From contig CM102284.1 of the NCBI GenBank assembly GCA_046563655.1, forward strand, positions 4,526,001-4,590,000: a stretch of 64,000 nucleotides of DNA, written 5' to 3'. Below the pieces are notes generated by a model. It ran no database searches. It saw only the letters and a list, made by a program, of their open reading frames with translations, and was not told the origin of the DNA. The stretch's first letter is position 1, and the number at the start of each line of letters is the position of its first letter. Both the position numbers and the translations under genes were made by a program. This stretch comes from Yuukianura sp. NJ FZ-2021 (Eukaryota). This document shows, piece by piece, positions 5,862 through 50,900 of the stretch.

Positions 5862-5956
5862 CCAAGTCTCTGGAAGGGGTTCCGCATCCGTCGGCTATCA
5901 ACATGAACTACCTTCTACCCTACCCCTACCCAAACGGCTCACCGCTCGGATCAATG
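5862..5956 (+). CDS. pan: TCF/pan coding exon (first visible): xKSLEGVPHPSAINMNYLLPYPYPNGSPLGSM
   Basis: Pyrimidine tract + TAG acceptor (5860-61) and GTAAGT donor (5957). The NMxYL..PYxYPNGS motif resembles the Pangolin/TCF region after the beta-catenin-binding domain. It ends in phase 0, matching the next exon. Confidence 0.85.
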
Positions 5957-6001
5957 GTAAGTAAACCCGAATTTCGTTTTTTTCGGTAGTTTTAGTCGAC
6001 A

Positions 6002-6017
6002 GGGTCATTGACCTTGG
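6002..6017. promoter_or_regulatory. IR1 nuclear-receptor element (EcR/USP-type) GGGTCA-T-TGACCT overlapping an Ftz-F1-type TGACCTTGG
   Basis: Matches RGGTCAnTGACCY exactly; motif match only. Confidence 0.4.
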
Positions 6018-8098: not shown

Positions 8099-8163
8099 AG
8101 TTTTTAGAGATTTGGAAACTATCAGTTTTTAGAGATTTGGAAATTTAAAAGTTTTTAGAGATT
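8099..8163. repeat. ~25-bp tandem repeat (AGTTTTTAGAGATTTGGAAA...), about 2.5 copies
   Basis: Units start at 8099, 8124 and 8150. Confidence 0.85.
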
Positions 8164-10210: not shown

Positions 10211-10711
10211 TTTTTTTTTTTTTGATTTCATTTTTTTTTAATTCTTCTTGATTTTTTTTTTTTTTTTTAATTTTAATTATTTAATCTTTTATCAACAACT
10301 ATAATAATGCAGAACTGTATTATAAGTAATAAATTTCATCCAATTCTTTTCCGGGGGTAATAGTTCCGAGAATTGAGGCTGAATTCCCACGTTGGATAGC
10401 TATACTAATTCGTTGTAGAAGGAAGGCGGTTGACTTCGGTTCGCCAGTGTAATCAGTAATACGATGTCCAATGGATTTGATGAGTTTTAAACCTTCGACC
10501 CCGAATACTCCTGATGTTTCCACTGCGATGATGCCCACGATGAATTCATTTTCCAAGTCAGCGTAAAGGTTGTGCTTGTGACCTTCTGCCAGAGAAGCAG
10601 CATGTCCGAAATTCACAGAAGAGGCCTGAAGGTAGGATGAAGCATAGGTATCACGACAGGTGAAATCCCAAGCTAAAGAGCGTCCAGATTTCCAGGGGAT
10701 GAGGGTGACTC
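10211..10711 (-). mobile_element. 5'-truncated non-LTR retrotransposon, CRE-clade-like (C-terminal restriction-like endonuclease region), with poly(A) tail and ~12-bp TSD
   Basis: The minus-strand frame is open 10712-10320: GVTLIPWKSGRSLAWDFTCRDTYA...AAxxAE..K...AVETSGVFG...FLLQRISIAIQRGNSASILGT, the typical CRE-like C-terminus. T-tracts lie at 10209-10223 and 10252-10268. The direct repeat CGCCGTTAGGTT is at 10199-10210 and 10712-10723. Confidence 0.88.
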
Positions 10712-16700: not shown

Positions 16701-19700
16701 CGGGATTACAATTATTTAAATATTGTTGATGAGGATTAAGGGGCCCTTTAAGGGCTAAAATTTGAATTTAAATAGGCTAGGTTATGTAATTTTTTCTTAG
16801 TATTTAAAGAGTACTAGAAGTGGTGGAGAACTATTCTCTAAGGAGCCGTAGACGGTGTATAGTTTTTACGCTTATAAATATTTGGACGTTAAGGACTGCA
16901 AGGGGGTCAAAAGAGCAAAATTTTATGGTTGTGAAATGTTGACAAACGGATCATCGTATAAGTGTTGGCTGAGAGCCAAGACTGTTGATGTTGCGATTGT
17001 TTGAAAGTTTTAATCGTAAATTGCAAATGCATCATTTTGGAAAAAAAGTGAAGTCTCTGGGGCATGAGGGAGTACTTTTGGATTTTGAGGAAGAAAATAA
17101 AGAATTTACGATTATGAGGGGATCTCTGTGAACAAGCACAGAAGAGAGTAGTAAAAGACTAAATCAGGTTCAGAGTTTTTATTGTGAACAACGGGGGAAC
17201 TCGGTTTTGTTTAAAACAAAGAAAACTCTAAAGATTTTTAAAGTTTTATTTTAGCAGATGCCTACTGCTGCTTTGACGTAGTAAAAAAGAGTTGAACTTA
17301 AAAAAGTCCCACAGTTTGGGACTATTTTGACTTTTTCATGTGAATTTTTGTTTTCTTTTCTACTCTTTTTTTGAAGTCATTTGCATTGTCATTTAGTTTG
17401 ATTGAAATTCAACAACGAAAAAAATAAGCTAACTTCAGTCGCTTTAACTGCGATTTTTTTTTAGCACAGTTAGGTTTTCAATTGTTCCGGAAAGCCAACT
17501 TTTCTTCAGTGGATTTTGAGTAGAGTTTGTGACAATTTTTTTTTCCGCAGCAGGGAACTTTTTCAAGTTTTCTGAAGTTACGCAACGTTTTTTCCCCTTA
17601 TGTTTTGCCCGTTTTTTGTCTGAAATGAATGGAAAGCAGGAAATATTTTTTTCGGTGCTAGACTAAACACTAAACACAGTTAAAATTTAATGGCGATTGG
17701 GCTTCAGATTTTTTCGATACATTTTGAAATGACGTGAAATCTTAATGTGTTGACTAATCTTAATCGAAGGGATTTCGTGCCTTTATTGCAAAGTCATCAA
17801 AAATTTGCCAGTGCCAACCATGTTTTGCTTTTGCAAATTGACACTTTTAGCATTTATGGGCAGAAGGATGATGTGATAGATTGGGTGGTCTGCTCGTCAC
17901 AGTTATTGCCAATTTTTTTTTGCTAAAATGTAAACAACCAATTGGGAGTTCTGGACAGATAGCAGTTTTTAGCAAAAACATTTAGCAAAATCGTTGTGCA
18001 AAAACATAAGTGTCAGGCTAGAAGCACTTCCGCTGAGGATGAGCAAGAACGGTTAATGGATTTCAGTAGTTTGGAGTTGTCCTATGCAATTGTTAAGTGG
18101 GTGTGAGAGAGTTTTAAAGTGGATTTGGAACACAATGGAATGGATGTATTTGATTATTATTCCAAATTGCAAATATCTCAAGTGTAGTTAGTCTCCTTTG
18201 TTCTCTTCCGTTCGAATTGTGTCGTACGTCCATTTGTGTGAGGTTTAACGATGCCGCCGCAGAAGCCGCCTTTGTTTTATGTAGTAGGCTTAATCTTATC
18301 AATCGCTTGACGCTGGGAAGCTTACTGGTGTCCAGAAGCAAATTTACAAGGACCGGATTTTGTGAATTTTTTCTGAAATCAAAATTTCAAAAAAAAAATG
18401 TTATGGGAGGACATGGAATGCTCAATTGAATCACTCTGAACCTAACGTGCGAAAGTAAATTTGAGTGAAAGGGGTGAAAAGTGACATAGGATCGCCCGGA
18501 TTTTTGTAACTCGAAACTCCTTTCTCTTGTAACGTCGAACTCAATGCACTTGACAGGTTGAAAAGGTGTCATTTGTCGTACCATCGAACACTAATACCAA
18601 CAAACCTTGCTTTACCTAACCCTTTCATGCGTCATTCAACCTAACATAACCTTAACCTAACGTAGGCTTAACCTATTGTGTAAGACCTCTTCAAACTGTA
18701 CGGGCTGTTGCTTCTCTGGATTGGATTTCATGTTTTTAATTTGAAGGAAAAGTGGGGTTCGTTACACGTTACACGCAGAGACACAAAATAGAAATTCTAT
18801 TCTTCTTTTTCGTTTAAAAAAATGTTTACCTGTTCTGAACACAAGTGAGGAGACAAAAAGTTTTTGGAATTGACATTTCTGGACTTTGGATTACTTTTTG
18901 GTCCATTTGAGTTGTGAGTGATTTGAAAATGTGTTGATGATAGTTGTGTCGTCGCCAGAAATGGATCTAGACTTGACGAGATCATTTCCAGGTTGAAGGG
19001 ATGAGAGAATGAGATGCATTGTTTTCCAGATGAAAAGTACAACTATGAAGATGATTTTCATTTTTGAGTTGAACAAAAGTGATTGGTTGATGGGCAATCA
19101 GGGAAGAAGAAGACAAAGGAGAGGAATTTTCAATTGTCTCTGTCGATTCTATTCCTACCTTGGCTGGATGTCATCTCATCTCGCGTGTTCGTCGTCTTTT
19201 CTTTTTTTCCGTATCATGTTGAAGCACTTCGAATCAAGTCGAATCCCCCCGTGGGGTTTGCCTTGTCTAACTAGATGAGAAACGACAAGTTTTCTCCATT
19301 GGAAAGTATCTGACTAACCTTAAGTTAGGATCTTAACCTAACCGGAGTCACAGTTCTTTTCCTTGGAGAGTTTTAGATTTAGGAAAAATCCACTTTCCGA
19401 TTTTAAAATTTTAGTACTCTAGCCTAATCTGAAACCTAAAACTAAATCTAACCAACACAAAGCGTAACTTTATTTTACTTTTTGTTGGTTTAATCCAAAT
19501 GTTATGCTTCAGAGGGAAAGTCTAAACATATACCTTTTACCTTTAGTTCCTACACTACATAAATTCTGCAAAACTATGATGTGTTTTTGACACATAAATT
19601 TTCAAGAAAATATAAAAATTCAATGGTGTTTTAGAATTTAGTTTTAAGCACTGTAGGTTTTACGAATGTTTAGGCTAGGTACTAGCCTAGGTTATGAATG

Positions 19701-21522
19701 TTGGTGTTCACCAACCCATTCAAAATTCAGGTGAGGATTGACAGGTAGAGTGTGTTGTGGTGTTAATGATATGATTTGGGCTCTTCCTGTTTTTGGGTTG
19801 TGATAATGGAAGTATTTGTAAATGTTGAGTTAGGACGTTATGTTGTTTGATGTATGATGGTTTCGGAGAGCGCGAAGAATTGACGTTGGACTTCGGAGGG
19901 GAGGGCGTGCCTAATGACTGCACAATGGCTTCACAGCAGGTTCAACGTTTTCTTCATTCCGAATTTCCAAACTTCTTTTGTACAAGTAACCCTGAAGGAG
20001 GGAAATTTTTACGAGAGTTGACCCATGCCTTCCAGGACCAAAAGCCTAAAGAAGAGAGTTACGGAATTAACGAGCGTCGAATGTTGACCCAGCCTCGGTT
20101 GGAATTGAAAAGTTTATTTTCCATTGTTGTTTCAGTTTCTCTGGAATTCCTTAAAGAGAAACGCATAAAATTGTACAATTTTCTCCGTTTATTGTTAAGG
20201 CATCAGGCAAAACAGGGTATGACGTTTCTTGGCCAAGGTTATGGCTGTTGGAAAAGAAAATTTTCGAAAAGAAAAATTGTAAAAGGAGAAAGTTTCCGGA
20301 ATTGAATTTTTTTTTGGTAATTTTCAATCGAGGCGTTTGAATTTCTCGGAGTTTGCTTTGCTGATGCCAAATTTTGATGATCAGCAGGAACAGAAGCCGC
20401 AAGCTGCGATGTGACCTCAACGACCTCCTTTGTGACGAGTTGAACGTAAAACAAATTGTGAGTCGTTGATTGTAGGTGAATTTGGCAGTGCATCGGGTTC
20501 GATTGTCGCTTCAAGCCAATGTCGTCTGTCATTGTCATGAGTGTCACTGTTAGGGACGTTTGGTTAAGATTTCTGTGACTGTGGCTCTCAATTGCTGTCC
20601 TGACAGATTCAGGCAGAGTAATCGCAGACTGGACTGGCAGGTTTAGAATTTTAGCATCCAACTGCTAAATCAAATGGTTTTTCTTGTGGTGGACCAAAGA
20701 CGCATGAAATAGTGAGAGAGTGGCTGAAGGTGAGGAGGATTGCATGCGGAATATCTAATTGCCTCACCTTGGCAGGTGACAGAGCGTCAAAAACTGGTCC
20801 CTTCATCTAATTCAAAGTGACTCTGTGGTGTCATCTTCACCAGAGACTGGTTGGAGGAATGATGGAACAATTATATGGTGCCTTTAAGCAGGCTTCATGA
20901 CTTCAATCTCACTTCATCTCCAACGCCTCTTCTTCATCTTCCATGTAACCATAAGAAGTGTCACGGAAAATGAAGATGAGTGGAGTCGTAATCGTGATGG
21001 AACTGAATCTGTGAACCATGACCAACTGAAAGTCACTTGGCCACGTCGTCCATTGTCCCACTCTTTTAAAGTGTACTTGAAGAAAGTGGAGATAACAAAT
21101 ATTTGAAAACCACAACAAATTTTCCAGAAGACAAAGTTTTTGAAATCTTTCAATTTAGTGGACTCAAAAAAGTCGTAGTCATTGTCCAGAAACATTGTGT
21201 CAACAGAGTGGAACAATGTTGACAAGTTTGTCGAATTTTTTATGGGAAGTTTATTGCATCTCGAAAATTGTCAAGTTTTTTTTTACTGCAACTTATGAAG
21301 TGGAAATTCTGAAATGCGGATTCAAAAGCCGAGACAAGTTTTAACAATTTTAAGTTTTAACTGTTTATTATGTGCTTAAATGACCGGGAAAGAGAAAGGA
21401 GAATAATAAACCGGTTGTAAACCGCCCATACTGATAATAGCGAAGCAATAGGCCCCCGAAGGATCTGGGTTTGTTAACGGTTTTCTGCCTTTCACCTTCA
21501 GGGGAGTGGGGGTCGCTTAATT

Positions 21523-21678
21523 TCCCCACTTTCCCGGAGCCTTAAACGGTGAGTAGGGGTGTGTTTTCCCGCTTTCCCGCCCCCCCCCCGGGGTAGTGGG
21601 GGTGCGTTTCCCCCACTTTCCCGCCCCCCCCCGGAGTAGTGGGGGTGTGTTCCCCCCACTTTCCCGCCCCCCAGGGGG
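21523..21678. repeat. GC-rich ~43-bp degenerate tandem repeat (CCCCACTTTCCCGCCCCCCCCCGGAGTAGTGGGGGTGTGTT), about 3 copies
   Basis: Visible repeated units with C/G homopolymer runs inside the DINE-like element. Confidence 0.85.
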
Positions 21679-21681
21679 TTT

Positions 21682-21991
21682 TGACAGGTGAGACGTGACA
21701 GCTGAGGCGTGACAGGTGACACCCGGCAAGTGACACTTGAGGGTGGCAGGTGACACGCGGCACGTGACAGGTGACACCCGGCACGTGACAGGTGACACCC
21801 GGCACGTGACAGGTGACACCCGGCACGTGACAGGTGACACCCGGCACGTGACAGGTGACAGGTGACACCCGGCAAGTGACAGGTGACACCCGGTATGTAA
21901 CAGGTGACAGGTGACACCCGGCAGGTGACAGGTGACACCCGGCAATCAACAGGTGACAGGTGACACCCGGCAAGTGACAGGTGACACCCGG
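21682..21991. repeat. Minisatellite, ~21-bp unit CAGGTGACACCCGGCACGTGA with 7-bp ACAGGTG insertions
   Basis: Directly visible tandem array; it explains the repetitive ORFs at 21498-21998. Confidence 0.97.
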
Positions 21992-22408
21992 TGGACACAG
22001 TGCATGAGTGTGTAATGTGTATATGTCAACTGCGTAATAAATTTTTTGCTAAGCAGAGAATCAAAGCCCATGCCAATTGCCTTTCCAGTCTCACAACCAG
22101 AGTTTTTTTTACCCACACTTGCATTACAAATGACCTTTAAAATCGATTTTGACCCGGAAGCAGGTGACCTAGGGTCACACATTACACATAAAAATTGTTC
22201 CCATCGATGAGATGAACAACTTTTGTAGAGGTCATTTTCCATGTTACCGGGATGAAACCGGTTGACCTTGACCTTTGACCCGGAAGGAGTTGACACACGG
22301 GGGTCATATTCAATAGTGAATAGGTCCGGGTCATGACATGGTCACTGGTCAAAACCCGGTTGAAATTGGTCCAATAGTTCCGGAGAAAATCGTTCTAATG
22401 TTTTCCGG

Positions 22409-22436
22409 GACAGACAGACGGACGGACGGACAGACA
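22409..22436. repeat. (GACA/GACG)n microsatellite
   Basis: gacagacagacggacggacggacagaca. Confidence 0.95.
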
Positions 22437-25400
22437 AACCTCTTTTATCATAATAGCTTCGCTATTATAATAAGTGGCGTACGTAAATGAAATGAATGTC
22501 AGTTTTTTGTTAAAAAGTAAAATTTTGAATTATGATTGAACGTTTTTTAAGTTGAGTTTGAGGATTGAGCATAATTGTTTTGTCAATGTTCTTCGTTGTT
22601 TTGTTAAGAATGCATGGGGAGACGAGGAGAGAGACAAGGAAATGGAGTCATTTGTTCTGGTCGACAAAGTTTTAAGTTGCTAAATAAGTGTAAAGTGAAG
22701 ATGGTTTTCTTATGAAGGGAAGCGAGTGACACAAGTTTGGCCCGCGACGAAGTTTCTGACATCACCATTTACATTTGTGAAAATTTTTCATAAAAATTCT
22801 GCTGTTTTGTGCTGGCGGAGCAGGGACTAGCCAAAATGTCGCTTTTGTCGTCCTGCGAAAGTTACTTGACAAATTCATAAAAATTCATAAACATTTTGCA
22901 TTTTTCCAAATGTCAGCGGCTAATTCACCGACAACTTTTTCAAACTGAAGGGTAGTAATTTCATTTTGCATTTTTGATTCTCTGCCGCCTGTTTTTTTGG
23001 TTCTCAGCAACAATGCAATTGCAGGCGCTCAATCAGATGAGTAGTTAAGACGCGGTTTAAGGTTGCTAGATGGCTGTGTAATTGTTGTGGGAATGGCTCC
23101 AGTTTTTTTCTGGAAGTAAATCTGGAAGTCTGGAATGGAATAATAATTTGAGGGATGCAATGAAGTGGAAACATTGAATTGTTGTGCCATTGGAATCAAA
23201 TGAGGCAATTGGGAAGCTAGAATGTAGCTGATTCCACCTGTCTTACGCATTGTACCAACTAGGGAGAAGATGTAATTAAGAAAACAATGGGAGAAAGCCC
23301 AGGGGAGGAAAGCCACTGGATCTGAATCTGCTCGAAATTCCTCCATCAGAGTAATTGACTAGTCGACTGAAGCTTGTTTCAAATAGGGCAAAAAAGAATT
23401 AGGAAAAATAATTAGACGTGGAACTGCCGCGGAGAACTGTCAGGGGAGTTGACATGACTTCGAAAAAAAGAGAAATTGAGAGAAAAAGTAGAGAAATGCG
23501 GAAGAAAATAAGAGAGAGAGAAATCTGGAGAAAGAAGAGAGAAATTTTGGTGAAATTTTGAATGAGAAAATTCAAATTTCAGTTTTTCTGTGAAAGTGAA
23601 CCTAAAAGGATTGGAGAATTTTTTAGAGATGAGGAGCGGTTTATGGAGATGATGCGGATGAATGTAGTATTTCCGGGGAGAAAGGAATTCAGTTTTTGGA
23701 TTTTTTTTTTGAAATTTGGTTTTTCGGAAGTTTTTTCTTAGGTAATTGGTAGTGTCTCGTTGGATTAATTCCGTAGCTTCTTCGTTTTGGTGAATTAGGA
23801 TTAGTGAGAAAAAAAATTGAATAAGGTGGGTTGGGCCGGGTAATTACTTGAACGAGATGGGTTGGTTCACCCTAGTCTTCAACTGCTTTCAAATTATAAT
23901 GCAATTCCATCAAGGTGGGATCCCACCTTCCCACCTTTCCTATTCCATTATTATGACGACCATGGAATCTCTGGTTATAACTTGGACTAGAGAACAATGG
24001 AATCACAAGATTCACGGCATCTTTTGGCACACCCGCCTGCAAAAGAACCAATAGAATTTATAATTCTACATTTATGATATTTTATTCATTCCAGTTCCCC
24101 AATAAACTTCTGTTTCCTGACAATAAGTTTGAGAGGCTAGAGGCAAAGCACACTCTTTAGATTAGTCAGAACAGTCCTAAATCTTTGGGATTTTTACCAC
24201 CAAAAACCAGGATTCAATTTACAATAAGTACCAGATCATATAACAAAAGCAAAACAAGTGAAGCCCGCACCTCTTGTGCTAACTTTTGTTATGAGTTTTT
24301 TTCTGGTTTGCAATTTATGAGTGGGGGATGGGGTTAGAATTGTTGGAGTTTGGCAGTGAATTGGAAAATCAACTCGTGTGGCGTCTCTTTTCTTGTTAAC
24401 TTGTTAACTCATGCTGTGATTTTGGTTGCATTGTTACTGTTTAACCTCCAGGATTTGCGTAGGAGGATTCAAGAATCAGGATTTTAGCAGCAGAGAAGAT
24501 TTGAGCAAAAGATGAGTTGGGGAAAAACAATTGTTCAAGTTTTTGGTTCTAGAAGTATGTGGGATTGGAGGAAACAGAATTAACTAAAATTTGATTAAAA
24601 ATTACTAAAACAAGATTTCAAACTTTTTTTTTGTTTCGTTAAACTTCATTTTGTGTACGAAATTGTCGAAATTTACCAATTTACTAATATAGTGCTTGTC
24701 GTTTGTCAATTTGATAAAAGAATGACAAGAAGTCAGATCGTCTGCTATTATTAATTCAGAAAAATGATGGATTGTCTCCTGCCGTTTTTGAAACTTTTGA
24801 AACCTTCATGCAAAAGAAGCAACACAAAATCGAAAAATTTGAGCGGTGTTTTGTGATGTTTTCGTCCGAGATGTTTCACGTTTCGTAGTTTCTTCCTTTC
24901 TTTATTTTTTTTCTTCTTTGATTTGGTACAACATGGTTTGCAATTTTAAAAATAATTTTCATTGTCTTGCTTTTCATTTAATTTTTTGTGATTTTTTTTT
25001 CTATGGTGGTACTTGAAAAGCCAGAGTTGAAACGAGATTTGTTTTTTGGTTTGCAAGTGTGGACCAGATGTAATAGTTTTTGGAAGTCGAATTTTCCATT
25101 TTTCTGAGAAGGAGGCAATTTTGGAAACCTTTTGCGTTGGACGATGTGCGTCATGACTGCGTGTTTCTTTGGAAGTTTTTGGTGTTCTCTTTGCGTACAA
25201 ATTGGAGTTTGTGTCTCAAGCGTAGAATTTGTGTCGTTTTGGTTAGTTGAAGTACCAAGAATAATCCCCGGGTATTACAAACTACGACGTCGCTCTCCCA
25301 CCACTGCTGCCGTCGCTCTTATTATTTTTGGGCTTCCCCTCCTGTTGAGCCGCTTTTGTCAGAGTATCATGAACCGATTTGGTTGCCATTAGGCGGGTCA

Positions 25401-27645
25401 CAAGGACTCCAAAAAAAAGTCGGGTGACATGACGAGGGACTTCCCGCCCTTTTGTGTCCCTGTCAACTGTGGGCTGGGGCTGATTAAAAAACTTTCTCCT
25501 AATGACATCATCTCTTGCGGCTTCCACAAGGGGAAAGCAGCTCTGCAGGATTCATGCTGTGCAGTGTGTTTTTTAATCTTAGCTTAAAAAAGTGTTTTTT
25601 TTTTTTCAAAATGTAACATGACATTTTGAAATTTGTGTTACGAATTAATTGTGAAGTGATAAAATCGTAAATTTTTTGAATTTCTCCATGCCGGAAATAT
25701 AATTTTCAAAACGTCTATAATTGGTAGTTTTGTTATGTAGTTAACATTTTCCACTGACTTTGATGAGTACTTGAGCTGTTGATTTTGGATTAAATAAAAT
25801 TTCGAAATTTGAGAATTTTCGAAAAATGAAGTTTTAATTTTTTAAAAGGAGGAGGATTGCAGATTTTTGTGAGATGAGACTGTACTGAAATATGACATCC
25901 GGATGTGGAAATTGGTTTTCTGGATCCCTAAGGAGTTAGTGGGGGCCCTTGAGAGCACTTGTGCAATTTCCCATTAGTGGAGACTCCAAAGTACCCTCCC
26001 TGGATTCTCATGTCATTGTGAACTTACGAGTACAAAACTTGAATACTTGAAGGAAGGACCGACTCGTGGAGGTTGGTCTCTATGATTTAATAATTGTGAA
26101 TGAATTGGTTCATTTGAGCATAAGATGAGATGAATTACATGGTTCTGGTTTCACATCTTCTTGAGAAAGGGTTGTAGGTTCGATTCTGGGCTCCAGCAGA
26201 AGTGGAAATGTGACCCTCATCCGGTCCATGGAGCTTCTGAATTGGATCATGTGTAGGGAGAGACTTAAGGGTCCCTCGAGAACAACTGAACTGAACGAGC
26301 CCTTCCTCTTGAATTACTTGGAACTGTGTGAAAGGATTGAGGTTAAGGGAAGATCAAATTAATAAGGAAGCACAATCTCCTTGGAAAACTGATCTCCCAC
26401 TTAAGTTTGTTCCGCTTTTGAACAGACGCAGAAATTGGATTTGGGGAAATTAGGAAGAAACGATCGAAAAGAAGCTTTGTCCTGACAGAAAGGGATTTTG
26501 AAAGTTCCAAAGAAATTTTGACAGGGAGGAGGGACTGGACAATAAAAATTTTGAGATGATCTTGTAAGGAGGAGGCGGTTAGAAAAACAAGATTTTTCTT
26601 CTAAACCCTTCCGCTCTGTCTGTTGAGTCGTAAAATTTTGAAAAACGAAAATAGTTTTCTTTATAACTGAAATTTTTAGAAATGGAATTTAAAAAAACGA
26701 GAGGTTCAAAAGGTAGTGAATTAATTTGGTTTTTTGAAGCGTTTTTTGGCACAAGAACCAGATGCCTCTTTGGAGGATGCGAGAAGGAAGAAGATCAAAA
26801 GACATTTTGTCACCCTGCGTTTTGAATGAATGAACGAAGCGGAAGTTTTGAAAAAAGGAAACGGGAAAATTCCAACTTTTTCGTTTTTTTGTAGCGTTTT
26901 TCGGTTTTTTCTTGTCTCTGGCAGAGGAATAGAAAAGTATTTTTGAAAGAGTAACAATAATAAAAGTACTGCTGTTTCATCCATTGGTTCGCTCGGATGA
27001 ATTTAGAAAGGCGTTGGGAGTGAAAATTTGCAGAAATTTCGGCGGAGGCTGAGGATTAGTTGGGTGCATGCTTTCGTTCTTTTCGAAAATTAACGCCTTC
27101 TCTGTAAAATAGTCAACTGCCACTAGATAGGAGAGGGTGTGAGGCAGGAGAAAGTTCAAAGTGAGCCTTAATTTTCCTACTGTTTGATCTCTCCTTTCAT
27201 CTTCTTTTTGGCCTTAAAAGTTCGTTTTGGGGGAAAGATGAAGAAGAGCGGGAAAAAATAATATTTGTGTTTCCTAATTTCTCAGCTTTGTTTTCCCCCG
27301 TTCAAAATTTACTTTTACTTTTTCAGTTTCACTTTGATGATTTTCGGAAAGTTGGAAAACTGTTTTAGCATCACATTCATGGGGCAATTTATTCAAAAAA
27401 GTTTTGACTAATCAAAAAAAAAATTGAGGAAAGTTTTCTCTTTTTTTCGTCGTTGTTAGAAAGTTGGTTTAGAAATGAAAAGTTTCGCGCCGTTCGGAGA
27501 AAAAACGAGTTAAATTTTGGTTGAAAATTTTTTCTTGTTATTAGATTTCTTTGATTGTTCCGCTTTTTTGAGTACGATTATTGAAATTAATTGTTTCAGT
27601 GTAGTGTAAGTGAAATTTTAGAAAATTTTTTGAAAAAAATTGTGT

Positions 27646-27683
27646 CTAATAAAATTTTCTTTTTTTTTGTGTTCTAGGTAAGT
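27646..27683 (+). other. Candidate recursive splice site (ratchet point) in the 48-kb intron
   Basis: CTAAT branch-like motif (27646-50), pyrimidine tract TTTTCTTTTTTTTTGTGTTCT, then AG (27676-77) immediately followed by GTAAGT (27678-83). Confidence 0.75.
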
Positions 27684-30600
27684 GTGAAAATTGACTTCAT
27701 CCTCGCTTGTTATTTGGCCTAATACGTCTCTTGACGGCGTTTCGTCTTTGGGCGGGCTGGAACATGAAGGAAGAGGCTTCTGCTTCAAAAGTGATGACGA
27801 ACAGTCAAAGGATAAAAAGTTCCGAAGTTATTTTTATGACTGGGTCTATCTCTCGCTGCTCATCTTCCCTCCTTAAGTTGAAGATTTGCTGACATATTGC
27901 TCTTGCTGGGATGTTCCAGAATCTAGGAGTGGTCTCTGTTGAGGTCAAAGGTTGAGGGCAAGGTCAACTGCGAATCCTTCTTTGGAGAATTGGACAAGTG
28001 GAGGGAGGATGGAGCAGAATAACAAGAGAGGGATGATGAAAGAAGTAAACTTCGTTGGGCTTTTTATTTTGGATGGTTGATGGTAAGGTGAGGACAGGCC
28101 TGATTTCACGCTTCGATAAAGAGAAGCCCTCTTCAGGATAATGGAATGGAGAGAAAACAATTAGAAATGGTTTCAAATTGGTTTAGGGGGAGGGGGGCCC
28201 TTGGGCAAAATCCAATTTTGTCCAGCTCATGGGCTAAAATTGTGCGTTTGAAGGTGGACGATCTGTGAGGATTTTGAAATTGAGGATTTGGATTGCAGTT
28301 TTCATAATCGAAATGTCACCATTTCAGTTTTGCCTGATTTTTATTTTTTGGAAGGTAGCGTCATTGAAAGCAATGGATTATTAAAAATGTGAAGATTCAT
28401 TCCGGATTTTTTGATGAGTATAATACTGCTCATTTTCATTTTCATTCTCGGAAATGTTTATGCTTGAGTGCACTTGAAATGCTGGAAATGAAAAGAGGAA
28501 GAAAGCTTTTCCGAATTTTTTGAAAATAATTATTAGCATGGAGTCGATAGACTTTCTCCGCTGATCCGTAACTTTCTCTCTCTTTTGTCATTTACTGACG
28601 ACAGAGTTAGAAGGAAATAATGCGTAAAAGGGGTAAAAGTTTTCCTCATTCGGAGAAAGCATATTAGAAAGTCAAATATGAAAAAGCCTGTTTTTATTTT
28701 GGAAAAAAAAATTCCTCTAATTTTGACTTTTTAGAAATTGTGAGTCACTTTTGAGTTCAGCGGAATAGAACGTTTGTACTTGAAATATTGATTGAAAAAT
28801 GAGGGGTTGACTTTTTGAAAAGTATTTTTTTTTTAAATTTCCCCCCACGTGATTAAGGGAATCATTGAAGTTCGAGCGGAGCTGACTTTTTCAATCCCAT
28901 CAGAATAATGGACTCACACGGTGGTCCTGGATTTTGTAAATACGTTTTTCAAGTAGGTTCGGCAGCTAGGAGCTTCTCAATTTCTGTTTTATTTGGAGGG
29001 AGGGGGATGATGACTTTCTTTTCGGAGAAAAAGTTGATTTTTTCTCTCCAAATGATCATTTTTTTGAAATTTTGACAGAAGAATAACCTAACCTTAAAGT
29101 AGCACTGGGGAAGAGGTGAGTAATTTGAAGTTGATTGGTTTTTTCTGTGAAAAGGAAGAATTCCTCCCCCTCATCATCTTTTTGTGTGATTTTGGAGGGT
29201 GTTTTTTTTTCACTCTGCTTTTGTTTGTAGAGGATTTTGACCGAGGTCGACCGTGGTCACAGGTCTCCACTGAATCTGTTATTAATTTAACTGGGGCGTT
29301 TATTAGAGGGGATGAGGAAGACAGGCGGTAATTGAAGGCTAGGGAACAACTACCTTGTTTCTTTGTATTGTTTGTTCTCCCCTCATGGTGTACTTTTGGG
29401 TAGGTTTGTTAGGCTAACCTGGTTAGGTTTTAGCCTAACAAACCCAGGAAAAAGTACCACGGTTTGTGTGTCCAGGTGAATTTTTGGGGTATGTTTGAGA
29501 AGTGTCTTAACACTTTGAAAAGAGGTTCGAAAGTGTTTGGGATTTTGTCTTTTTTAGAACAAGTCATCTTTGGGGGAGAGAAAAAAACGAAAAAGAAACA
29601 GAAAGAAAAAGCTTTTTGCCTTTTGTTCTTGAGATTTTCGAAAAAGAGGGAAGCTTGTTACCTCAAATCTTGGCGTCAGGGAAGGTGTCAGGCAAAGGAT
29701 CTTTTCTGGAAGATGTGATTTCAAAAAAACGAAAAAAAAAAATGAAAAAGTTGGTTTTTTGTTTGAAAGATGCGTTTAAGGTAGATTTGGACCAGATTAG
29801 ACTAGCTTCTCCGGAGGGAGGAAGAGAAATGTCGAAAAACATTTTTTTTTTGAAAATTGCGTAGAATTTTAACTGATCTGCCCCTACGGTGAAAATGGGC
29901 AGTTTGTGTAATTAAGTTCTCATTGTCGGCAGGTTAACTTCCGAGGGAGGTTTAGTGTCAATGATGTAATGTGTAGGTTTTTTGAAAAAGATCTTTTGTA
30001 AACATGCAAAATCCGTAGAAGATCCGGTTAGGTTGATTCTAGAACTGTCAAAAGCATTGGACAGTGAAATGGATTTTCAAGTAAAGAGGAATAAGCTTGT
30101 GGACCACCCAGACCTCCTCTGGTGGTCCACCTAGAGCAAAGATGACCACAATGGAACTTGGTGGCTCCTTGGAGTTATGACGGAAGGTGAGGCTTCAATT
30201 GTTCACAATTGTCACGCGATTTTCAGTGGTTTTTTGAATGTTGAGTGCAGGAGATGCGACATGTTTATGAAAGAGGCTTTTGTAATGTAGAATTTCGGAA
30301 AAGGAGACAAAAAAATTATTTGGGATTTTTTGAGGGTAGTAATCATGATTAAGTTCAAAAACCGGATTTCAAACGTGCCATACTTGTTTGTGGTTGAGAA
30401 AAAAAAATTGTTTCATTTTTTGGAAAAATTGTTCAATTTGTTTTGGAACAAATTGGCACGTTGACTTCTTCATGTAGGATTAGATTGGACTGAACCAATT
30501 GCAATTGGGAGCAATTTGGCAAAGTAGCAAATAAGTTTTTGAATTTTGTTGGATTTGGTTTAGGTGAAATAATTATTGTTGGAATTGCAATTTTGAAATA

Positions 30601-33600
30601 GTAGTTGATAAGGTACGTGACAGAGAATTGAGTTTAAGTTTTGAAATTTGAAATTTTGATGAAGCCTTTGGAAAGTTTATGACTGTTTAAATTGGACGCA
30701 GGGAGTGGAGTGATGTTGATTTTGTTTAGTGATTTTGAAGTCTTTGATCCCAAGTGAATGTTGTGTATGGTTTCTGGATTGGATTTCAGTTTGGAGTGAC
30801 CAGTGACGAGGGGAGATATGTTGGCAACGTAAGGTAACCTGTCTGTGGATTGGATTAATAATGAGTCTCTTTGTGCCAAGTGGACAAGATGAAATTGGTC
30901 TGAAAGCATAAGGGAGAGAGACCATAAATCAAAGAGATGACTCGTGGTTTATGAGCCAACTGAATCCAAATGAGGCTTTGGTCATTTTGGAATTGGCAGA
31001 GGACGACAGTCACTTCTCTGAGTGCTTTTCTGTAATAAGCAAATATTACAAAAACAAATATAAGCACTCTTTGGACTTGGAGATTTTAATTAGAGTTGGA
31101 CGAAAAGTACAAAGGACGGGAGACTCAGGGATTTCCGTGGACTAAACTTCATCAAAATCCGAATTTTCATGCTTCACTGAATTACAAATTTTGATTTTAA
31201 GTCGACTGTCGCATTTTGTCAAACCAGGCTGGATGTCGGACTTTGTAAAAAATTTTGGCTAGAATTTCCAAATTTCTAATTTTTTCTTGGATTTTGGTTT
31301 CGCGTCATGGGAAATTCGAAATGTTGAAAAATCTTAGTTTCGGCCGATTCGTGTAGGTGAAATAGATTGAACATCTTCTTGAGATTCGTTCATAAATTGT
31401 CTTATCAAATTTTCGCTTTAAGAAGTTTTTGAATTTTAAAATTCCATTCCATCCGTTTTTCTTTTTGGATTTTCCGATTTTCATTAAAAAAAAAGTGTAC
31501 CGAAATCTGTGAAGAAAGTCGAAATCTTTTTGGAATAATTGGAAATGCGTCATGCAAAAAACCGGGAATTGATTCTGCAGAATTGGAAAACTGATTCATT
31601 GCTAAAAACGAGATAGGACGATGAAGACTTTAAGGTTAGCCTAACCTGAAAATGAAAGAAAACATTAGCTTAGGCCATCTTCAAAGGTTACGTTAGGATA
31701 GGAAATCTTATGCTAGTTAGGTGAGGTTTGGGTTGAAAATGAGACGAAAGCGTAATTGTTCTTTGTGGATTTAAATTACATAATGACAGGGTTCAGTTTC
31801 AAACCAACTTTCTGACGTTTTTAAGAAGCATTGTGCCGGTTTGGTTTTCTTTTTCCAATTTTGTGTGATCCCGGGTGGTAAAAATAAGGTACACAAGGAG
31901 AGAAGTGGTTCGGTAGAAAAACAATGCTAAGGTGGCACTCCGGAAGAGTCATAAAGACAAAGACAAGAGGTAAATCACTCCATTTCTTACTGTTTTTTGA
32001 AGTCTGTTAAACTGTAAAGGGAGTGCGGTAGGTACAGTCGTTGTTCAATTACACTTTGCTTTCGGTCCTAATTTCCGACAAGGTACATCTTCTCCCAAGT
32101 AGATTTTTGTCTTTTGGCAGAAGAAGCGTAATTACAGGTCTTGTGTTTTACTATGCTAAACCGTCCCAGGAAGATCTCTCGTAGTGATCTTTAGTATTTA
32201 AAGACATCTTGTTGTTAAAATGGCCAAGTGGAAGATGAGCCGCTTGTTACTTTAGTTGCCGAAATGCCTGATTACTATGCGGCAACTCTTCAAACTAAAA
32301 GGATCTCTCACCTCAAGTACCCACCGCACCCTCAGTGTATTTCTAAACTCTACCTACTAGTTAGCAACCCATCAACAAACCCAGGAAAGTTAACCCTAAA
32401 CACAAGTCATTATCATTTCATCATTAGCAAAACCCATACAAACGTAGGATGAGTTTTTAAAACGGCGGGGCGTAGTAGTGTCTCGAAATTTTCAAATTCG
32501 AAGCGAGGTTAAGCTCTTTGCCGAGCCAAAACTGTTACCGAGTTCGGCTTTTTTGCTATGGTGGAAGTGTCACTTTTCTTTGAAACAAAAGTTGAAGACA
32601 TGCATTTTGAAAGATTGATTTTGAAAGCCGAGTTGACAGAAGTTGGATGTCAAAAAGTCATTTGTTGGTGACAGGGAAGCTTCGGAATGTTTGTGCGTGC
32701 AGAGGCTTTTGCCTTTGTACGTTTGAAATTTTGAAAGTTGAGGTTATGAATTTTGTTTGACTTGTAATTTATGGCCCTTCTGACTTGACATTTACATTTA
32801 TAGCTATTGTAATTTCTGGTAATAAGAAGAGGGAGACGCAAGTTTATTGGAGTGGGAGGGTACTTGGACCAAAAGGACTCAGGCCATTGTTGTTTTGGCC
32901 TCTGCGGAAATGTTCATGTAGTACTTGCGGATAACTGTTAAGAATTGGGATTGTTGAACTAATATCAGTATGTTAATTGAAAGTTTTAGGGTGCGCAGAA
33001 ATGATGCGCTGAAGATGTTTTGAAAAGGGAGAAACAGGGTTGTTTGGAACTGGGCGTTGTATTTGTTTCCGTCGCAGGATCATCAATTAATGTCAATACA
33101 TTTTGGGCCCGGTGCCAAGGGTTTGTCGGACTCCGACTAAGTTAGGCCTAGCCTTAACCGAAAACCTACCTTTTAAGTGTCTGATAGTCCGAAAACGTCT
33201 TTTGTCCAAATAAGTTCCTGGAAGAGGGCTTTTGTAAAGGAAAATTTATAATAGGCACAGCAAGGTAGCAGTGTAGCCCTTAAAGGGACGCCAGAAGACG
33301 GCGACTTATGAAACAGTTTTGCTTCTGTTTGGTTCCTTTTGTGACGATGATTGTCATATTGTTGGTTCGGCTGATCGATGGGACTGTTGATTTTTCCGAA
33401 AAGCAACCGAAAAGGTATCTTCGGGCGACGTCCATTTCTGCTCCTCCAAATAGAATTTTTGTGTTTTTTGAACCATTTTGAAATTTTTTTGAAGAAAAAT
33501 GTGGGATTTGATGTCATGCATTGTGTGGTTTGGTGACAGTGGTGATGGGAGAGGTGTAAATTGGAAGAGGTTAAGGTTAGGTTAAGACTAGGCTTTTGGT

Positions 33601-36600
33601 TAGGTTAAGGTTAGGTTTTGTGGGAGAGTAATGTTGTTATTGTTTGGGTGATGTAAGCTTTTTTGTTGAAAAAGAAGATAGATCCGGTGGATAAGACGAA
33701 TGTTATTGAGTAGAAATACTGCGTCTGCAATTTCCTTGTAACAAGATCGGATAACAAAAGAAAAGCTCTTGGATTGGGAAACTGCTGGGAAAGAAAAGTT
33801 CTTCTTTTCGGGAGAGAAAAGAAGAAAAGTTCCAAATTTTGTGTCCAGTTTGGTTTTTTTTTTTGAAAAAGGAAAATGGAATTTTCGGTGAATTGAGCTT
33901 AGATTTTTGAAAAGTGAATTGATCCTAATGTGTTCCTTTAGAATTTAAGAAAAATGAACCTCAAGAAGGATTTTTACTGGAACCGAATTAAAGAAGCTTT
34001 TCGATCTAATTGTTTCGATTTTTGAAAAAGTTTGCTTTTCAATTTCATGCTCCAATTTTCATTTCTTTTAAATTTCAGATTTCTTGTTAGTAATTTTGAA
34101 CTTTTTTCTTTATTCGGATTTTCGAAATAGACAAACCCGTTTACATTAACGGCGAGAATTCCCTTCTAGTTGTTTTTTGAAAAATCCGTTAAGAATTGGC
34201 AAACTTGTTTTGAAAAATGGAAAAGAATTCCCTTCTAGATATTTTTTTTTCGAAATCCTTAGAGTTCACAGCATGTTTTAAAAAGCAAAAAGGCCCTTGA
34301 GGAAAACATCAACTTTTGTGTGCGTTTGTTTATGAGGTTGTGGATGAGGTATGAAGGATTTTAAGTTGGCACCCTGCTCTTTCTCCGCAATACGACTTTT
34401 TAAGTGGAAGAAAGACAAAGGCAGAATATGATTGTTTATGAGGACAGGGCCAGGAACAGTCCGGAGGTGGTGACACGGCCATTATTTATGAACAGCTCCA
34501 GCTAGGCGCTCTTCTACCCGCGGCAAATTGGGGTCACGCATGGATTCACCAGGATGAGTCAAAAACTACCATCGTGTCATGTCCACTTAGGTTTTTCAAG
34601 ACAGGTCAAAATAAACTCAAAAGATGAGAATTGAGATTGACTAGATTTGGTATTCTAATCAAAATATTTTGTCCATCTTTCCATTTTTGTTTTAGGAAAA
34701 AATCGTGAATGTCAGAGAGATGTTAAAAACTCATTTGAGTCAAGAAAGCTAAAATGTTAAGCTCAAAACTCATTAAGAGTGAAAAGTGTTGGAGGAGTGG
34801 TGGAGTTCTGGACATGATGAAAATCCAGTTAGGAAGTGAACTTATTATTTTTTGTCCAGATTTGACTTAAGGGTGGAATTGAACCCTTGGAGATTTAAAA
34901 AGTACTTTTAAGAAGAGAGAGGTGAGAATGGACAGGCTAATTTGAGGGGAGATGAGGCCAAGGGACCCCTGTCTGTTGAGAGGTTAACCCTTGAAGTGTT
35001 TTTAATCTGGGTGAGACACGTCCATATGCTTTTTAAAATTTTGAAAGAAGGTGTTGGAGATAGCCTGGAGTAAGAAATTTAAGTGATCTCTGGAACTTTA
35101 GAACTGTAGTAATCATTAGACTTAAGTCCCAAGGGAGCCTTAAAGGGCCCATGTGCACTTCTTGACTGAGCTTTTTAGAGTTAGTATTTTACAGACCTGC
35201 ATTATTTTTCTTAAGACCTGTGATTATCACTACACAACCAAGAAACTAAGGGCCCCCATTGTCTCCTTATTAACACTTTGAGCAGTGGAAATCAGTCTAA
35301 AAGCTTAAACGATTCTAAAAACTCCCACTTTAGTACTCCAGGGATGTGTTTTTCTTTTCAAAGGACCCCCTGCAAGGGGGACTTGAAGAATTGCAAAATT
35401 TGCAAGACGGTTAACAGTTTAATGTTTGTTGTAAATCAATGTTCGGTAGATGTCGATAGGTTGGCTTTCTAGTGATTCGCCATCTGTTCAAGAACTGGCG
35501 CAGTGGTGTATTTTATTTTTTAAATAAATTTTTCAATTTAGATTTTTCTTTTTAAAAAGATAAAACACAAACACACTTCAAAAACATTTTTTAACGGAAG
35601 GTCAGGGTTTGTATTGTGTTTTGTTCCAAACCTTTGGCGCAATGATGGCGGTGTTTGATCCTGAAAGTGCAATAATTTTAAGAAGTTGTGGATGTTTTTT
35701 GATTATGGGATTTTAGTTCGGTTGGTTGTTCCGTTTTTCAAAATCTGTTTTGAAAAGATATTTTAACTTTTTTTTTCTTCGCCTAAACTTTTAAAGCTTT
35801 CTTCTGTTTTTATTTGCTCAACTTGTTCCTTCAGTTGTTTGTTTGAGTTTGAATAGAGGGAGAACTTTAGAAAATTGGACTTTGTTCTTCGTTTTTACTG
35901 CCGAATTTGAAAATGTTCTTGGCACTACACATATTCATTTCACATGAATGGAAATTGACATCCCAAAGGTCAAGCATAGGTCATTTCAGACAATGAACTC
36001 ACAAGTTGTTCAAATGAGAGCATATCGCAACTGTAAAATATTTAGGAAGATTGACGGAAGAATTGTGGCTTTTTTTTAGAATGGCGCTTAGAGACAACAT
36101 CGGTTCAAAAAAAGCTTTCACAACCAGTGTATATATTATATTAGAAGCTTTTGGGAAGTAACTTTTCGTTCCTGTTTTTTTTTTGTTTTCGAAATTTGGA
36201 AAATGAAAGTTACAAGCTCTGGTGCTACGAATCTGCATTTCTAGTGTCTTGAGAGACAGCAAATTGCTGTACTCGAGTTGAGAAGATTGAATTGAAGGGC
36301 TGGGCAGCGTAAATTATGAGACACAAATTAGTATTGGATGACCACATTTAGAGGTTGTCCACTTTTTAAAAAACGATGGAAGTGGGTTTTATTTTTCTAA
36401 ACACAAGTAAAATGGATTCTGAACAAGTGGTGAGAGATGTTGTTTGATTTGGATCTGGACCTTGGGGAGAGAGGACGATGCTTGTGCTAAGGTGAGAGGG
36501 AGGCGACAGGTTGAAGTTATATAAATTATGGTCATGCAATTCGCGACAGGTCATAAATAAGTCAATTCAAGTCCAAATGCTCAGTTGTTGTGTGGTAGAA

Positions 36601-50146: not shown

Positions 50147-50900
50147 TTCCTGCATGCCCTGCGTGTCTCTAATGAATATCTTCAAATATTTACTAAAAGA
50201 CTGTGATGAACCGGGGAGTTTATTTGCAATATTGCAAAAGACAGCAGGTTGAACATCTCGAGTGTTCGCGGCGTCTTTAGTTTTTACCCTGGGCTCAGAT
50301 TTTGAAAAAGTTGAAGTAATTGTAATTGTTTTGCAAGGGATTGTTTGGTATACACAATGTTTTTGAGTACTTGGTGAAATTGTTGGGGAGTACTTGACTC
50401 TTTTGCAGAGTACTTTTAGAGTCATTGTGTTCCTCAGTGGCAGCTGTCACGATAGTGCTGGGATAAGATCCTCTGGAAGCTATTATGATCTCTGTATGGA
50501 GTAGTTAGTTCACCTTTTGACGAAATTATGAGAGCCATTCTCTCCTATTGGGAAATGTTAGGCTAACCTGTTTTTGTTAGGCTAGGGGAAAATGAAATCC
50601 AATGGGGACAACAAACAGCGGATGACAGAGAGCACATGGCTCTCTCCTTTGAAGATTGGAATCTGACAAATGAAAGAGCATGGATCTTCTCGAATCTGAA
50701 GAGGACACACTTTGGACAATCATTTTTCATTGAGATACTGATCTGTCTCTGTTGGAGTCTGCATATGGCATAAGCGTCCATTGTTGTGATCTGTTCTTTA
50801 TCTGATCGCATCTTGAACGAGAGAATTCAGATGACAATCTTGATCATGTTTGACGTAGTTTTCATCCCGGGAGCCCTTGACTATTAGTTTGGTCCAGAGA

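What the first reader, a model, noticed from the sequence alone, without database searches (positions are those of the whole stretch)
27646..27683. Consensus recursive splice site near the middle of a 48-kb intron
Seen: branch-like CTAAT, a long pyrimidine tract and TAG|GTAAGT, i.e. a strong acceptor fused to a perfect donor, on the gene's sense strand. It splits intron 5957-54347 into 21,721-nt and 26,670-nt pieces. Established: such zero-length-exon ratchet points remove long introns stepwise in Drosophila and in some vertebrate genes. Inference: this intron is removed recursively, which would be notable outside flies.
Basis: partly seen in the sequence, partly recalled or inferred. Interest (0 to 1): 0.8.

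Follow-up and report, generated by a model that had tools for sequence, protein, structure and literature searches.

The report
Conserved ratchet point in springtail TCF
A back-to-back acceptor-donor splice signal in the middle of a 48-kb intron of a springtail-like animal's Wnt-pathway gene (pangolin/dTCF) is too good for chance and is kept in a diverged relative, so the intron is probably removed in two steps as in fruit flies, although no RNA data could be checked.

Summary
The motif is real. It reads CTAAT, a 14-nt pyrimidine run, TT at -6/-5, then TAG|GTAAGT, with the junction at 27677|27678 on the sense strand. The gene is pangolin/dTCF, and its nearest named relatives are springtails. 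Homology supports the 48,391-nt intron 5957-54347.

The bare 9-mer is at chance level, but the composite is not. It arose in 1 of 1500 simulated introns at the observed quality and in 33 of 1500 at a relaxed quality. It is the clear outlier among all AG|GT sites on either strand.

A 1,048-nt metagenome contig (L001) is colinear with window 26790-27714. It keeps the branch motif, the pyrimidine tract, AG|GTAAGT and about 36 nt downstream, while most of the surrounding sequence does not align. L001 was found by searching for the motif, so this test is biased.

No RNA run was listed, so junction reads, saw-tooth coverage and lariats remain untested.

Verdict: probably a functional fly-type zero-length-exon ratchet point (about 0.75). 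It is a new member of a known kind. Excess of such sites in mosquito, bee, beetle and sea urchin introns was published in 2009 (PMC2773006), so "notable outside flies" is overstated.

The parts
5862..5956 (+). Upstream coding exon of pangolin/dTCF (..NYLLPYPYPNGSPLGSM). It ends in phase 0 and its donor is ATG|GTAAGT at 5957.
   Evidence: Searches give the acceptor (G at 5861) and the donor; aligns to residues 78-102 of psyllid dTCF P0005, E 2e-7.
5957..54347 (+). 48,391-nt intron that holds the site.
   Evidence: Searches give the GT and AG ends. In P0005 the segments homologous to the two flanking exons are only 11 residues apart. tblastn with 4 dTCF proteins found no credible exon inside.
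27645..27654 (+). Candidate branch-site block TCTAATAAAA. The likely branch A at 27649 is 29 nt upstream of the junction.
   Evidence: The block is identical in L001 at offset 32 against 33 in the window. Duff et al. place ratchet-point branch points at -36 to -21 with a peak at -30.
27655..27675 (+). Pyrimidine tract: 16 of 18 Y at -21..-4, a 14-nt uninterrupted run, and TT at -6/-5.
   Evidence: The two G of the tract are C in L001, which has 18/18 Y.
27676..27683 (+). [quoted passage not shown] After step 1 the regenerated donor reads ATG|GTAAGT, the same nine bases as the native donor at 5954-5962.
27645..27714 (+). Conserved island centred on the site: 57 of 70 positions identical to L001.
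   Evidence: BLAST E 3e-12; identity peaks at 24-26 of 30 here against a background of roughly 10-16 of 30; 22 of 31 identical at +7..+37, positions not fixed by the search pattern.
27678..27790 (+). Possible cryptic RS-exon (113 nt, out of frame, in-frame stop after 14 codons) ending at the weak donor aaa|GTGATG at 27791. Uncertain.
   Evidence: The donor matches 6 of 9 consensus positions. No equivalent donor was seen in the 130 nt that L001 holds downstream.
54348..54486 (+). Downstream coding exon (SLKNMGLGAAGSLPFF..PPAHMGIPPYHHLDPSKGVH), which starts in phase 0.
   Evidence: It is 91% identical to P0001 and 82% to Allacma fusca dTCF.

Best explanation
The site is a fly-type intronic ratchet point, that is, a zero-length exon, in the 48.4-kb intron of a springtail-like hexapod's pangolin/dTCF gene.

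Inferred mechanism:
- As the intron is transcribed, the donor at 5957 is spliced to the strong acceptor ending at 27677. The branch is at the CTAAT about 29 nt upstream. This removes 21,721 nt.
- The junction recreates a donor, ATG|GTAAGT, identical over nine bases to the native one.
- That donor is then spliced to the acceptor at 54347, which removes the remaining 26,670 nt and leaves no trace in the mRNA.

Shown here: the motif, its rarity, its superiority over the gene's ordinary splice sites, and its conservation in one relative. Inferred: that both splicing steps occur.
For: (1) Motif. There are 16/18 Y at -21..-4 and the longest Y run is 14 nt. The gene's 12 ordinary acceptors in the window have 7-14/18 Y and runs of 5-11 nt. 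TT at -6/-5 is present; Duff et al. report it in 196 of 197 fly ratchet points against 43.76% of all introns. The candidate branch A at -29 lies within the fly range of -36 to -21 with a peak at -30. GTAAGT is a perfect donor; among the 11 ordinary donors of this gene read are GTAAGT.

(2) Rarity. The observed quality arose in 1 of 1500 simulated introns and the relaxed quality in 33 of 1500. Expectation from real counts is 2 to 28 acceptor-like sites times 9/48,391, about 4e-4 to 5e-3. No comparable site exists on the antisense strand.

(3) Context. The intron is 48,391 nt and the segments are 21.7 and 26.7 kb. Fly recursive introns average 45,164 bp and their segments 17,953 +/- 9,039 bp. 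The gene is a developmental transcription factor.

(4) Conservation. Contig L001 matches the window in four colinear blocks over about 925 nt. The best block is the site itself, with 57/70 identical. Branch block, tract, AG|GTAAGT and the next G are kept, and both G of the tract are C in L001. At positions not fixed by the search pattern, 22 of 31 downstream bases match. The chance hit L002 matches 11 of 31 there, and random offsets average 8.1 with a maximum of 21 in 200,000 trials.

(5) The site region is unique within the window. It has no Rfam family and no unusual fold.

(6) Base rate. In non-fly invertebrates, sense-strand sites of this type exceed antisense ones 4- to 8-fold or more (PMC2773006 Table 2).
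Against: - There is no RNA evidence of any kind: no junction read, saw-tooth or lariat.
- L001 was found by scanning for 21 bases of the motif itself. Relatives that lost the motif could not have been seen, and only one relative is in hand.
- L001 carries no coding sequence. That it lies in a dTCF intron rests only on colinearity with the window.
- The -3 base is T, not the C of the fly consensus quoted in PMC2773006.
- No convincing downstream donor for a cryptic RS-exon was found. The best candidate, aaa|GTGATG at +113, matches 6 of 9 positions and was not seen in L001. Joseph et al. regard such an exon as part of fly recursion.
- Three other conserved islands lie within 900 nt upstream, so conservation alone does not prove a splicing role.
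- The whole genome is not held, so genome-wide sense/antisense enrichment in this species could not be measured.
Confidence: 0.75

Rival explanations
1. The acceptor at 27677 belongs to an expressed alternative exon, either a poison exon or an alternative last exon. It would then be an isoform or dosage switch, not a silent constitutive ratchet point. The exon starts with GTAAGT, as do the Ubx microexons that are themselves handled by recursion.
For: The acceptor is strong and conserved. Moderate conservation extends to about +36. Frame 0 from 27678 hits a stop after 14 codons, so inclusion would truncate the protein or trigger decay. One A[AT]TAAA lies at 28380.
Against: There is no good donor downstream. 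The frame-0 peptides of the window and L001 are not alike, and only the window has the early stop. None of the dTCF proteins retrieved carries such a segment. A perfect GTAAGT exactly at the exon start would be unexplained unless recursion is used.
Confidence: 0.1
2. The island is a conserved non-splicing element, for example part of an intronic enhancer cluster, that happens to look like splice signals.
For: Three more conserved islands lie at 26790-26845, 27155-27208 and 27257-27307. The neighbourhood is therefore under constraint for some reason.
Against: The conserved bases are exactly the splicing signals. The two tract differences between the species are G against C. The composite is a rare event in itself, at most 33 of 1500 simulated introns.
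Confidence: 0.06
3. The GT at 27678 is only the donor of an unannotated upstream exon, for example a first exon from an internal promoter giving an N-terminally truncated dTCF. Or 27606-27677 is an ordinary 72-nt intron of some unannotated transcript.
For: A second GTAAGT lies at 27606, so 27606-27677 has the form of a typical short intron. Internal promoters are known for vertebrate TCF genes (recalled, not checked here). Four acceptor-like sites lie 130-400 nt upstream.
Against: The 27606 GTAAGT is not conserved; L001 has a single GTAAGT, at the site itself. An exon ending at 27677 would end in TAG in the frame needed by exon 54348. A donor-only role does not explain the conserved branch motif, tract and AG. 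The 72-nt unit does not explain the GTAAGT after the AG.
Confidence: 0.05
4. Chance co-occurrence of an acceptor-like and a donor-like sequence with no function.
For: The bare 9-mer is at chance level.
Against: Searches show the rarity of the composite. Searches show conservation in a colinear relative. The 22-base pattern found nothing in the prokaryote genome or viral contig collections.
Confidence: 0.03

Closest known systems
Drosophila intronic ratchet points / zero-nucleotide recursive splice sites (Hatton 1998 and Burnette 2005, as cited in the papers read; Duff et al., preprint 10.1101/006163, whole text read; Joseph et al. 2021, PMC8605326, Introduction read)
   Same: Juxtaposed acceptor and donor ending in AG|GTAAGT. 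An unusually strong pyrimidine tract. TT at -6/-5. A branch candidate near -30. A sense-strand position in an intron of typical recursive size with typical segment sizes. A sharp conservation peak at the site. A developmental host gene.
   Different: The lineage is springtail-like, not a fly. T replaces C at -3. No clear cryptic RS-exon donor was found. There is no RNA evidence. Whether fly pangolin has such a site could not be checked: the supplementary tables are closed, and a search for 'recursive splicing' with 'pangolin' listed 3 of the 4 papers that hold both terms; judged from their titles and abstract starts alone, none concerns the fly gene.
Predicted RP-sites in large introns of mosquito, honey bee, flour beetle and sea urchin (Shepard et al. 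2009, PMC2773006; Table 2 and passages read)
   Same: The same composite motif, inferred from sequence alone, in a non-fly invertebrate. Sense strands showed an excess over antisense of 4.0-fold in bee, 8.0-fold in beetle and 8.2-fold in sea urchin; mosquito had 1.029 against 0 per 100 kb.
   Different: That work is a genome-wide statistic without individual sites or conservation. Here there is a single site with cross-species conservation but no genome-wide count.
Vertebrate recursive splice sites with RS-exons (Sibley et al. 2015, as described in PMC8605326 and PMC13149111)
   Same: AG|GT inside a long intron of a long regulatory gene, with a regenerated donor.
   Different: Vertebrate sites are defined through an RS-exon with a competing downstream donor and are few (9 high-confidence sites). 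No sense-strand enrichment of the motif is seen in vertebrates (ratio <=1.5).
Predicted recursive site in the 230-kb intron of locust NPF1 (PMC8892266; passages read)
   Same: A non-dipteran site predicted with the Burnette matrix.
   Different: The locust site has U2AF65 RNA-immunoprecipitation support but no conservation analysis. The present site has conservation but no experiment.

Membership tests
Fly-type zero-nucleotide ratchet point | [quoted passage not shown] | tested here: met
   One search shows TAG|GTAAGT at 27675-27683 on the + strand. Sense orientation follows from the flanking exons. The -3 base is T, not C.
Fly-type zero-nucleotide ratchet point | TT at -5/-6 (196 of 197 fly sites) | tested here: met
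   TT at 27672-27673. Only 5 of the gene's 12 ordinary acceptors have it.
Fly-type zero-nucleotide ratchet point | Pyrimidine tract more prominent than at ordinary acceptors | tested here: met
   16/18 Y and a 14-nt run, against 7-14/18 and runs of 5-11 nt at 12 ordinary acceptors of the same gene.
Fly-type zero-nucleotide ratchet point | Branch point at -36 to -21 with a peak at -30 | tested here: inconclusive
   A CTAAT motif with its A at -29 is present and conserved. Use as a branch point needs lariat data.
Fly-type zero-nucleotide ratchet point | Location in a long intron (fly range 11-133 kb) with segments of about 18 +/- 9 kb | tested here: met
   The intron is 48,391 nt with segments of 21,721 and 26,670 nt. 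The intron model rests on homology, not on RNA of this species.
Fly-type zero-nucleotide ratchet point | Conservation peak at the site relative to the flanking intron | tested here: met
   using one relative (L001). Caveat: that relative was found through the motif.
Fly-type zero-nucleotide ratchet point | Exon-to-site junction reads, saw-tooth read density and recursive lariats | not testable with these tools
   One search listed no RNA run, so read laying could not be used.
Fly-type zero-nucleotide ratchet point | Cryptic RS-exon (about 50 nt) with a weaker downstream donor (Joseph et al.) | tested here: inconclusive
   the best candidates are aaa|GTGATG at +113 and aag|GTCAAC at +285, each matching 6 of 9 positions. 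Neither was confirmed in L001.
Fly-type zero-nucleotide ratchet point | Genome-wide excess of such sites on sense strands of long introns in the species | not testable with these tools
   No whole genome is held for the window.
Vertebrate RS-exon type recursive site | An RS-exon that is included when the regenerated donor is weakened or repressed | not tested
   This needs RNA data or minigenes.

The most novel reading that the evidence does not exclude
The site is not a silent relay but a dosage or isoform switch. Whenever the regenerated donor at 27678 is not used, the transcript runs on into sequence with an in-frame stop after 14 codons. That would give either decay or a short protein with only the N-terminal part of dTCF and no HMG box. 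The efficiency of the second recursive step would then set how much full-length Wnt effector is made. The conserved 36 nt downstream of the site, and the conserved islands upstream, would be the regulatory handles.
Probability: 0.1. Interest if true: 0.55.

Novelty: new member of a known kind. Interest (0 to 1): 0.35.

Why it matters
If RNA data confirm it, this would be an individually identified, evolutionarily conserved zero-length-exon splice site in Collembola, a hexapod lineage outside the insects, and in a core Wnt-pathway gene. It would support the view, so far based on motif statistics in a few genomes, that stepwise removal of long introns is an old arthropod habit and not a fly speciality.

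Two searches of the held paper library for 'recursive splic' with 'Collembola' or 'springtail' found 0 papers.

The practical lesson for genome annotation is small. The two named springtail dTCF gene models retrieved (P0002, P0009) start with unrelated N-termini just before the exon that follows this intron. Long introns of this kind may therefore break gene prediction.

Tried and rejected
- RNA evidence: the look-up of sequencing runs (kind rna, window 23000-32999) listed no RNA holder. Read laying could therefore not be used.
- Whole genome of the window: none is held.
- Earlier findings of this scan: nothing near the site, no look-alike stretches, and two unrelated word hits.
- Repeat origin: blastn of 27100-28300 against the window found only itself.
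- RNA families: no Rfam match in the whole window.
- Hairpin or mirtron reading of 27606-27677 and of 27540-27740: z-scores +0.48 and -0.82, so not structured.
- More relatives: the 22-base gapped pattern found nothing in genome contigs or viral contigs.
- Second metagenome hit: L002 shares only the pattern, with 11 of 31 identical downstream, and is taken as a chance hit.
- Naming the relatives: the cluster look-up gave no organism for P0001 or P0003.
- Pfam on three long ORFs inside or beside the intron: no family.
- Burnette et al. 2005 (PMC1450422) is not held. It is cited only through the papers that were read.
- Supplementary tables of Duff et al., which list the fly host genes, are closed. 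Whether fly pangolin is among them is unknown.
- A coding exon starting at 27678 was considered and rejected because of the stop after 14 codons and the unlike peptides in L001.

Full report
**Observation.** On the + strand the window reads ctaat (27646-27650). A pyrimidine tract follows at 27655-27675, interrupted only by G at 27669 and 27671. Then comes TAG (27675-27677) directly followed by GTAAGT (27678-27683).

**The gene and the intron.**
- The flanking open frames translate to ..NYLLPYPYPNGSPLGSM (exon 5862-5956, donor ATG|GTAAGT) and SLKNMGLGAAGSLPFF..PPAHMGIPPYHHLDPSKGVH (exon 54348-54486).
- Downstream lie the two halves of an HMG box (Pfam PF00505, E 1.7e-7), a C-clamp-like segment and a long serine-rich tail.
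- A protein search with the second exon gave 8 hits at E<=0.01 among 23 candidates. The best were an unnamed 140-aa protein (91% identity) and dTCF of the springtail Allacma fusca (82%), then psyllid dTCF at 65-70%.
- A search with a less conserved exon gave one hit among 133 candidates, from the springtail Orchesella dallaii (70%).
- The host is therefore a springtail or a close relative, and the gene is pangolin/dTCF.
- In psyllid dTCF P0005 the first exon aligns to residues 78-102 (E 2e-7) and the second from residue 114. The two exons are thus adjacent in a relative's protein, and 5957-54347 is one intron of 48,391 nt.
- tblastn with four dTCF proteins found no credible exon inside it.
- A strong G-over-C and T-over-A bias runs unbroken on the + strand from position 1 to about 52 kb. 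This fits one long transcription unit read in this direction.

**Is it more than chance?**
- The bare 9-mer is not. It has one match against 0.63 expected, and 47 of 100 shuffles had at least one.
- The composite is. In the whole window only 2 AG|GTRAGT sites lie on the + strand and 1 on the - strand. Only this one has a pyrimidine tract: 16/18 against 5/18 and 8/18.
- In the intron's sense strand there are 2 acceptor-like sites of this quality and 28 at a relaxed threshold. GTAAGT occurs 9 times in 48,391 nt including the intron's own donor. The expected number of composites is therefore about 4e-4 to 5e-3.
- A third-order Markov simulation of the intron gave the observed quality in 1 of 1500 runs and the relaxed quality in 33 of 1500.
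- In a simple combined ranking of all AG|GT sites the site scores 30. The next best sense site scores 25 and the best antisense site 24. No second convincing site exists in this intron or in the 5.9 kb of the preceding intron.

**Comparison with the gene's own splice sites and with fly ratchet points.**
- The 12 ordinary acceptors of the gene in this window have 7-14 of 18 pyrimidines and runs of 5-11 nt. Five of the 12 have TT at -6/-5. The site has 16/18, a run of 14 and TT.
- Of the 11 ordinary donors read, only 2 are GTAAGT.
- Duff et al. (preprint 10.1101/006163, whole text read) describe fly ratchet points as follows. Their pyrimidine tract is more prominent than at ordinary acceptors, and TT at -5/-6 occurs in 196 of 197 sites. 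Branch points lie at -36 to -21 with a peak at -30. Host introns average 45,164 bp and segments average 17,953 +/- 9,039 bp.
- The present site meets each of these at the sequence level.
- After the first step the regenerated donor would be ATG|GTAAGT, the same nine bases as the native donor.
- The one feature that is not clear is the cryptic RS-exon with a weaker downstream donor that Joseph et al. consider part of the mechanism (PMC8605326, Introduction read). The best candidates are aaa|GTGATG at +113 and aag|GTCAAC at +285, each matching 6 of 9 consensus positions.

**Conservation.**
- No eukaryote genomes are available to the tools. I therefore scanned the metagenome contigs for nine T, three free bases and TTCTAGGTAAGT. 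Two contigs matched.
- L002 shares nothing beyond the pattern (11 of 31 identical downstream) and serves as a chance control.
- L001 (1,048 nt) matches the window in four blocks on one strand, in the same order and with similar spacing:

| L001 | Window | Identical |
|---|---|---|
| 94-162 | 27714-27645 | 57/70 (E 3e-12) |
| 520-567 | 27307-27257 | 41/51 |
| 603-659 | 27208-27155 | 44/59 |
| 917-968 | 26845-26790 | 42/56 |

- The sequence between the blocks does not align. L001 is therefore the orthologous stretch of a diverged relative.
- In a sliding 30-column count the site region is the highest peak, at 24-26 of 30. The other islands reach 20-22, and the background is mostly about 10-16.
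- Conserved at the site are the branch block TCTAATAAAA (offset 33 against 32), the T run, TTCTAG|GTAAGTG and much of the next 30 nt.
- The two G that interrupt the tract in the window are C in L001, which has 18 of 18 pyrimidines.
- At +7..+37, positions not fixed by the search pattern, 22 of 31 bases are identical. Random offsets gave a mean of 8.1 and a maximum of 21 in 200,000 trials, and the binomial P is about 2.5e-7.
- The important caveat is that L001 was found through the motif. A relative that had lost it would have been invisible, and there is only one relative.
- Even so, exact retention of 21 chosen bases in a locus whose surroundings are mostly unalignable is not what neutral drift gives.

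**What could not be tested.** These are junction reads 5956>27678, a saw-tooth step and lariats. The window's genome is not held, so the species-wide sense/antisense excess could not be measured.

**Rivals.**
- A second GTAAGT lies at 27606. Together with the branch motif, tract and TAG it outlines a typical 72-nt intron. It is not conserved, since L001 has a single GTAAGT, at the site. The unit has no special fold, and it would not explain the GTAAGT after the AG.
- A donor-only reading (an upstream exon or internal promoter) does not explain the conserved acceptor signals. Such an exon would also end in TAG in the frame that exon 54348 needs.
- A coding exon starting at 27678 is excluded by a stop after 14 codons and by unlike peptides in the two species. 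A poison exon or alternative last exon remains possible.
- A non-splicing conserved element is possible, because other islands lie nearby. The conserved bases, however, are precisely the splicing signals.

**Comparison with what is known.**
- Shepard et al. 2009 (PMC2773006, Table 2 read) counted such sites per 100 kb of large introns against their complementary strands:

| Species | Sense | Antisense |
|---|---|---|
| Fly | 2.196 | 0.101 |
| Mosquito | 1.029 | 0 |
| Bee | 0.484 | 0.122 |
| Beetle | 0.807 | 0.101 |
| Sea urchin | 0.540 | 0.066 |

- In vertebrates the ratio was at most 1.5.
- A locust site has been proposed with U2AF65 pull-down support (PMC8892266, passages).
- A 2026 review still names only Drosophila, mouse and human as documented cases (PMC13149111, section 5.2).
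- The mechanism and its likely spread beyond flies are therefore in print. A specific conserved site in Collembola is not: searches for 'recursive splic' with 'Collembola' and with 'springtail' each found 0 papers.

**Verdict.**
- The finding is a new member of a known kind. It is of moderate interest to people who study splicing of long introns or arthropod genome evolution, and of little surprise to them.

Noticed in passing
window 1-52000, + strand: There is a very strong and uniform strand asymmetry. GC skew is +0.14 to +0.30 and T exceeds A over the whole intronic part of the gene, then the skew falls to about 0 in the exon-rich 56-64 kb. In the intron G=11,107 against C=7,567. This is far stronger than I would expect from transcription-linked bias, and the cause is unknown.
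   Followed up: no
window 27606-27677: A second perfect GTAAGT lies 72 nt upstream of the site. Together with the branch motif, tract and TAG it forms a unit shaped like a typical short intron. Another GTAAGT within 100 nt has a chance of about 3%. It is not conserved in L001 and not structured.
   Followed up: partly
window 26790-26845, 27155-27208, 27257-27307: Three further islands are conserved with L001 (42/56, 44/59 and 41/51 identical), colinear with the site island. By eye, two contain GATCAAA and one contains CAAAG, which resemble HMG-box binding cores (recalled, not tested). They may be intronic regulatory elements.
   Followed up: no
window 59387-59488 and 60195-60351: Two alternative versions of the exon encoding the second half of the HMG box lie in tandem ([34 protein letters not shown] and [34 protein letters not shown]), probably mutually exclusive. 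Both forms also occur among psyllid dTCF proteins P0008 and P0005. The Allacma model P0002 strings both together.
   Followed up: partly
window 58595 and 59048: Two ordinary coding exons of the gene begin with GT directly after their acceptor AG (cag|GTCAAG and tag|GTACGC). AG|GT alone is therefore common at real exon starts here. Only the full GTAAGT with the strong tract marks the candidate ratchet point.
   Followed up: no
proteins P0002 (Allacma fusca) and P0009 (Orchesella dallaii): Both named springtail dTCF models start with unrelated N-termini just before the segment homologous to exon 54348. Both lack the segment homologous to exon 5862-5956 and everything upstream of it. The likely cause is that a very long intron at this place defeats gene prediction in those genomes too.
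   Followed up: no
window 21552-21991: There is a G+C-rich tandem-repeat cluster (periods 14, 21, 43 and 49) inside the intron. It produces long spurious ORFs on the - strand.
   Followed up: no
window 10320-10727, - strand: A 135-aa open frame lies inside the intron with no Pfam match. It may be a remnant of a mobile element, but it was not identified.
   Followed up: partly
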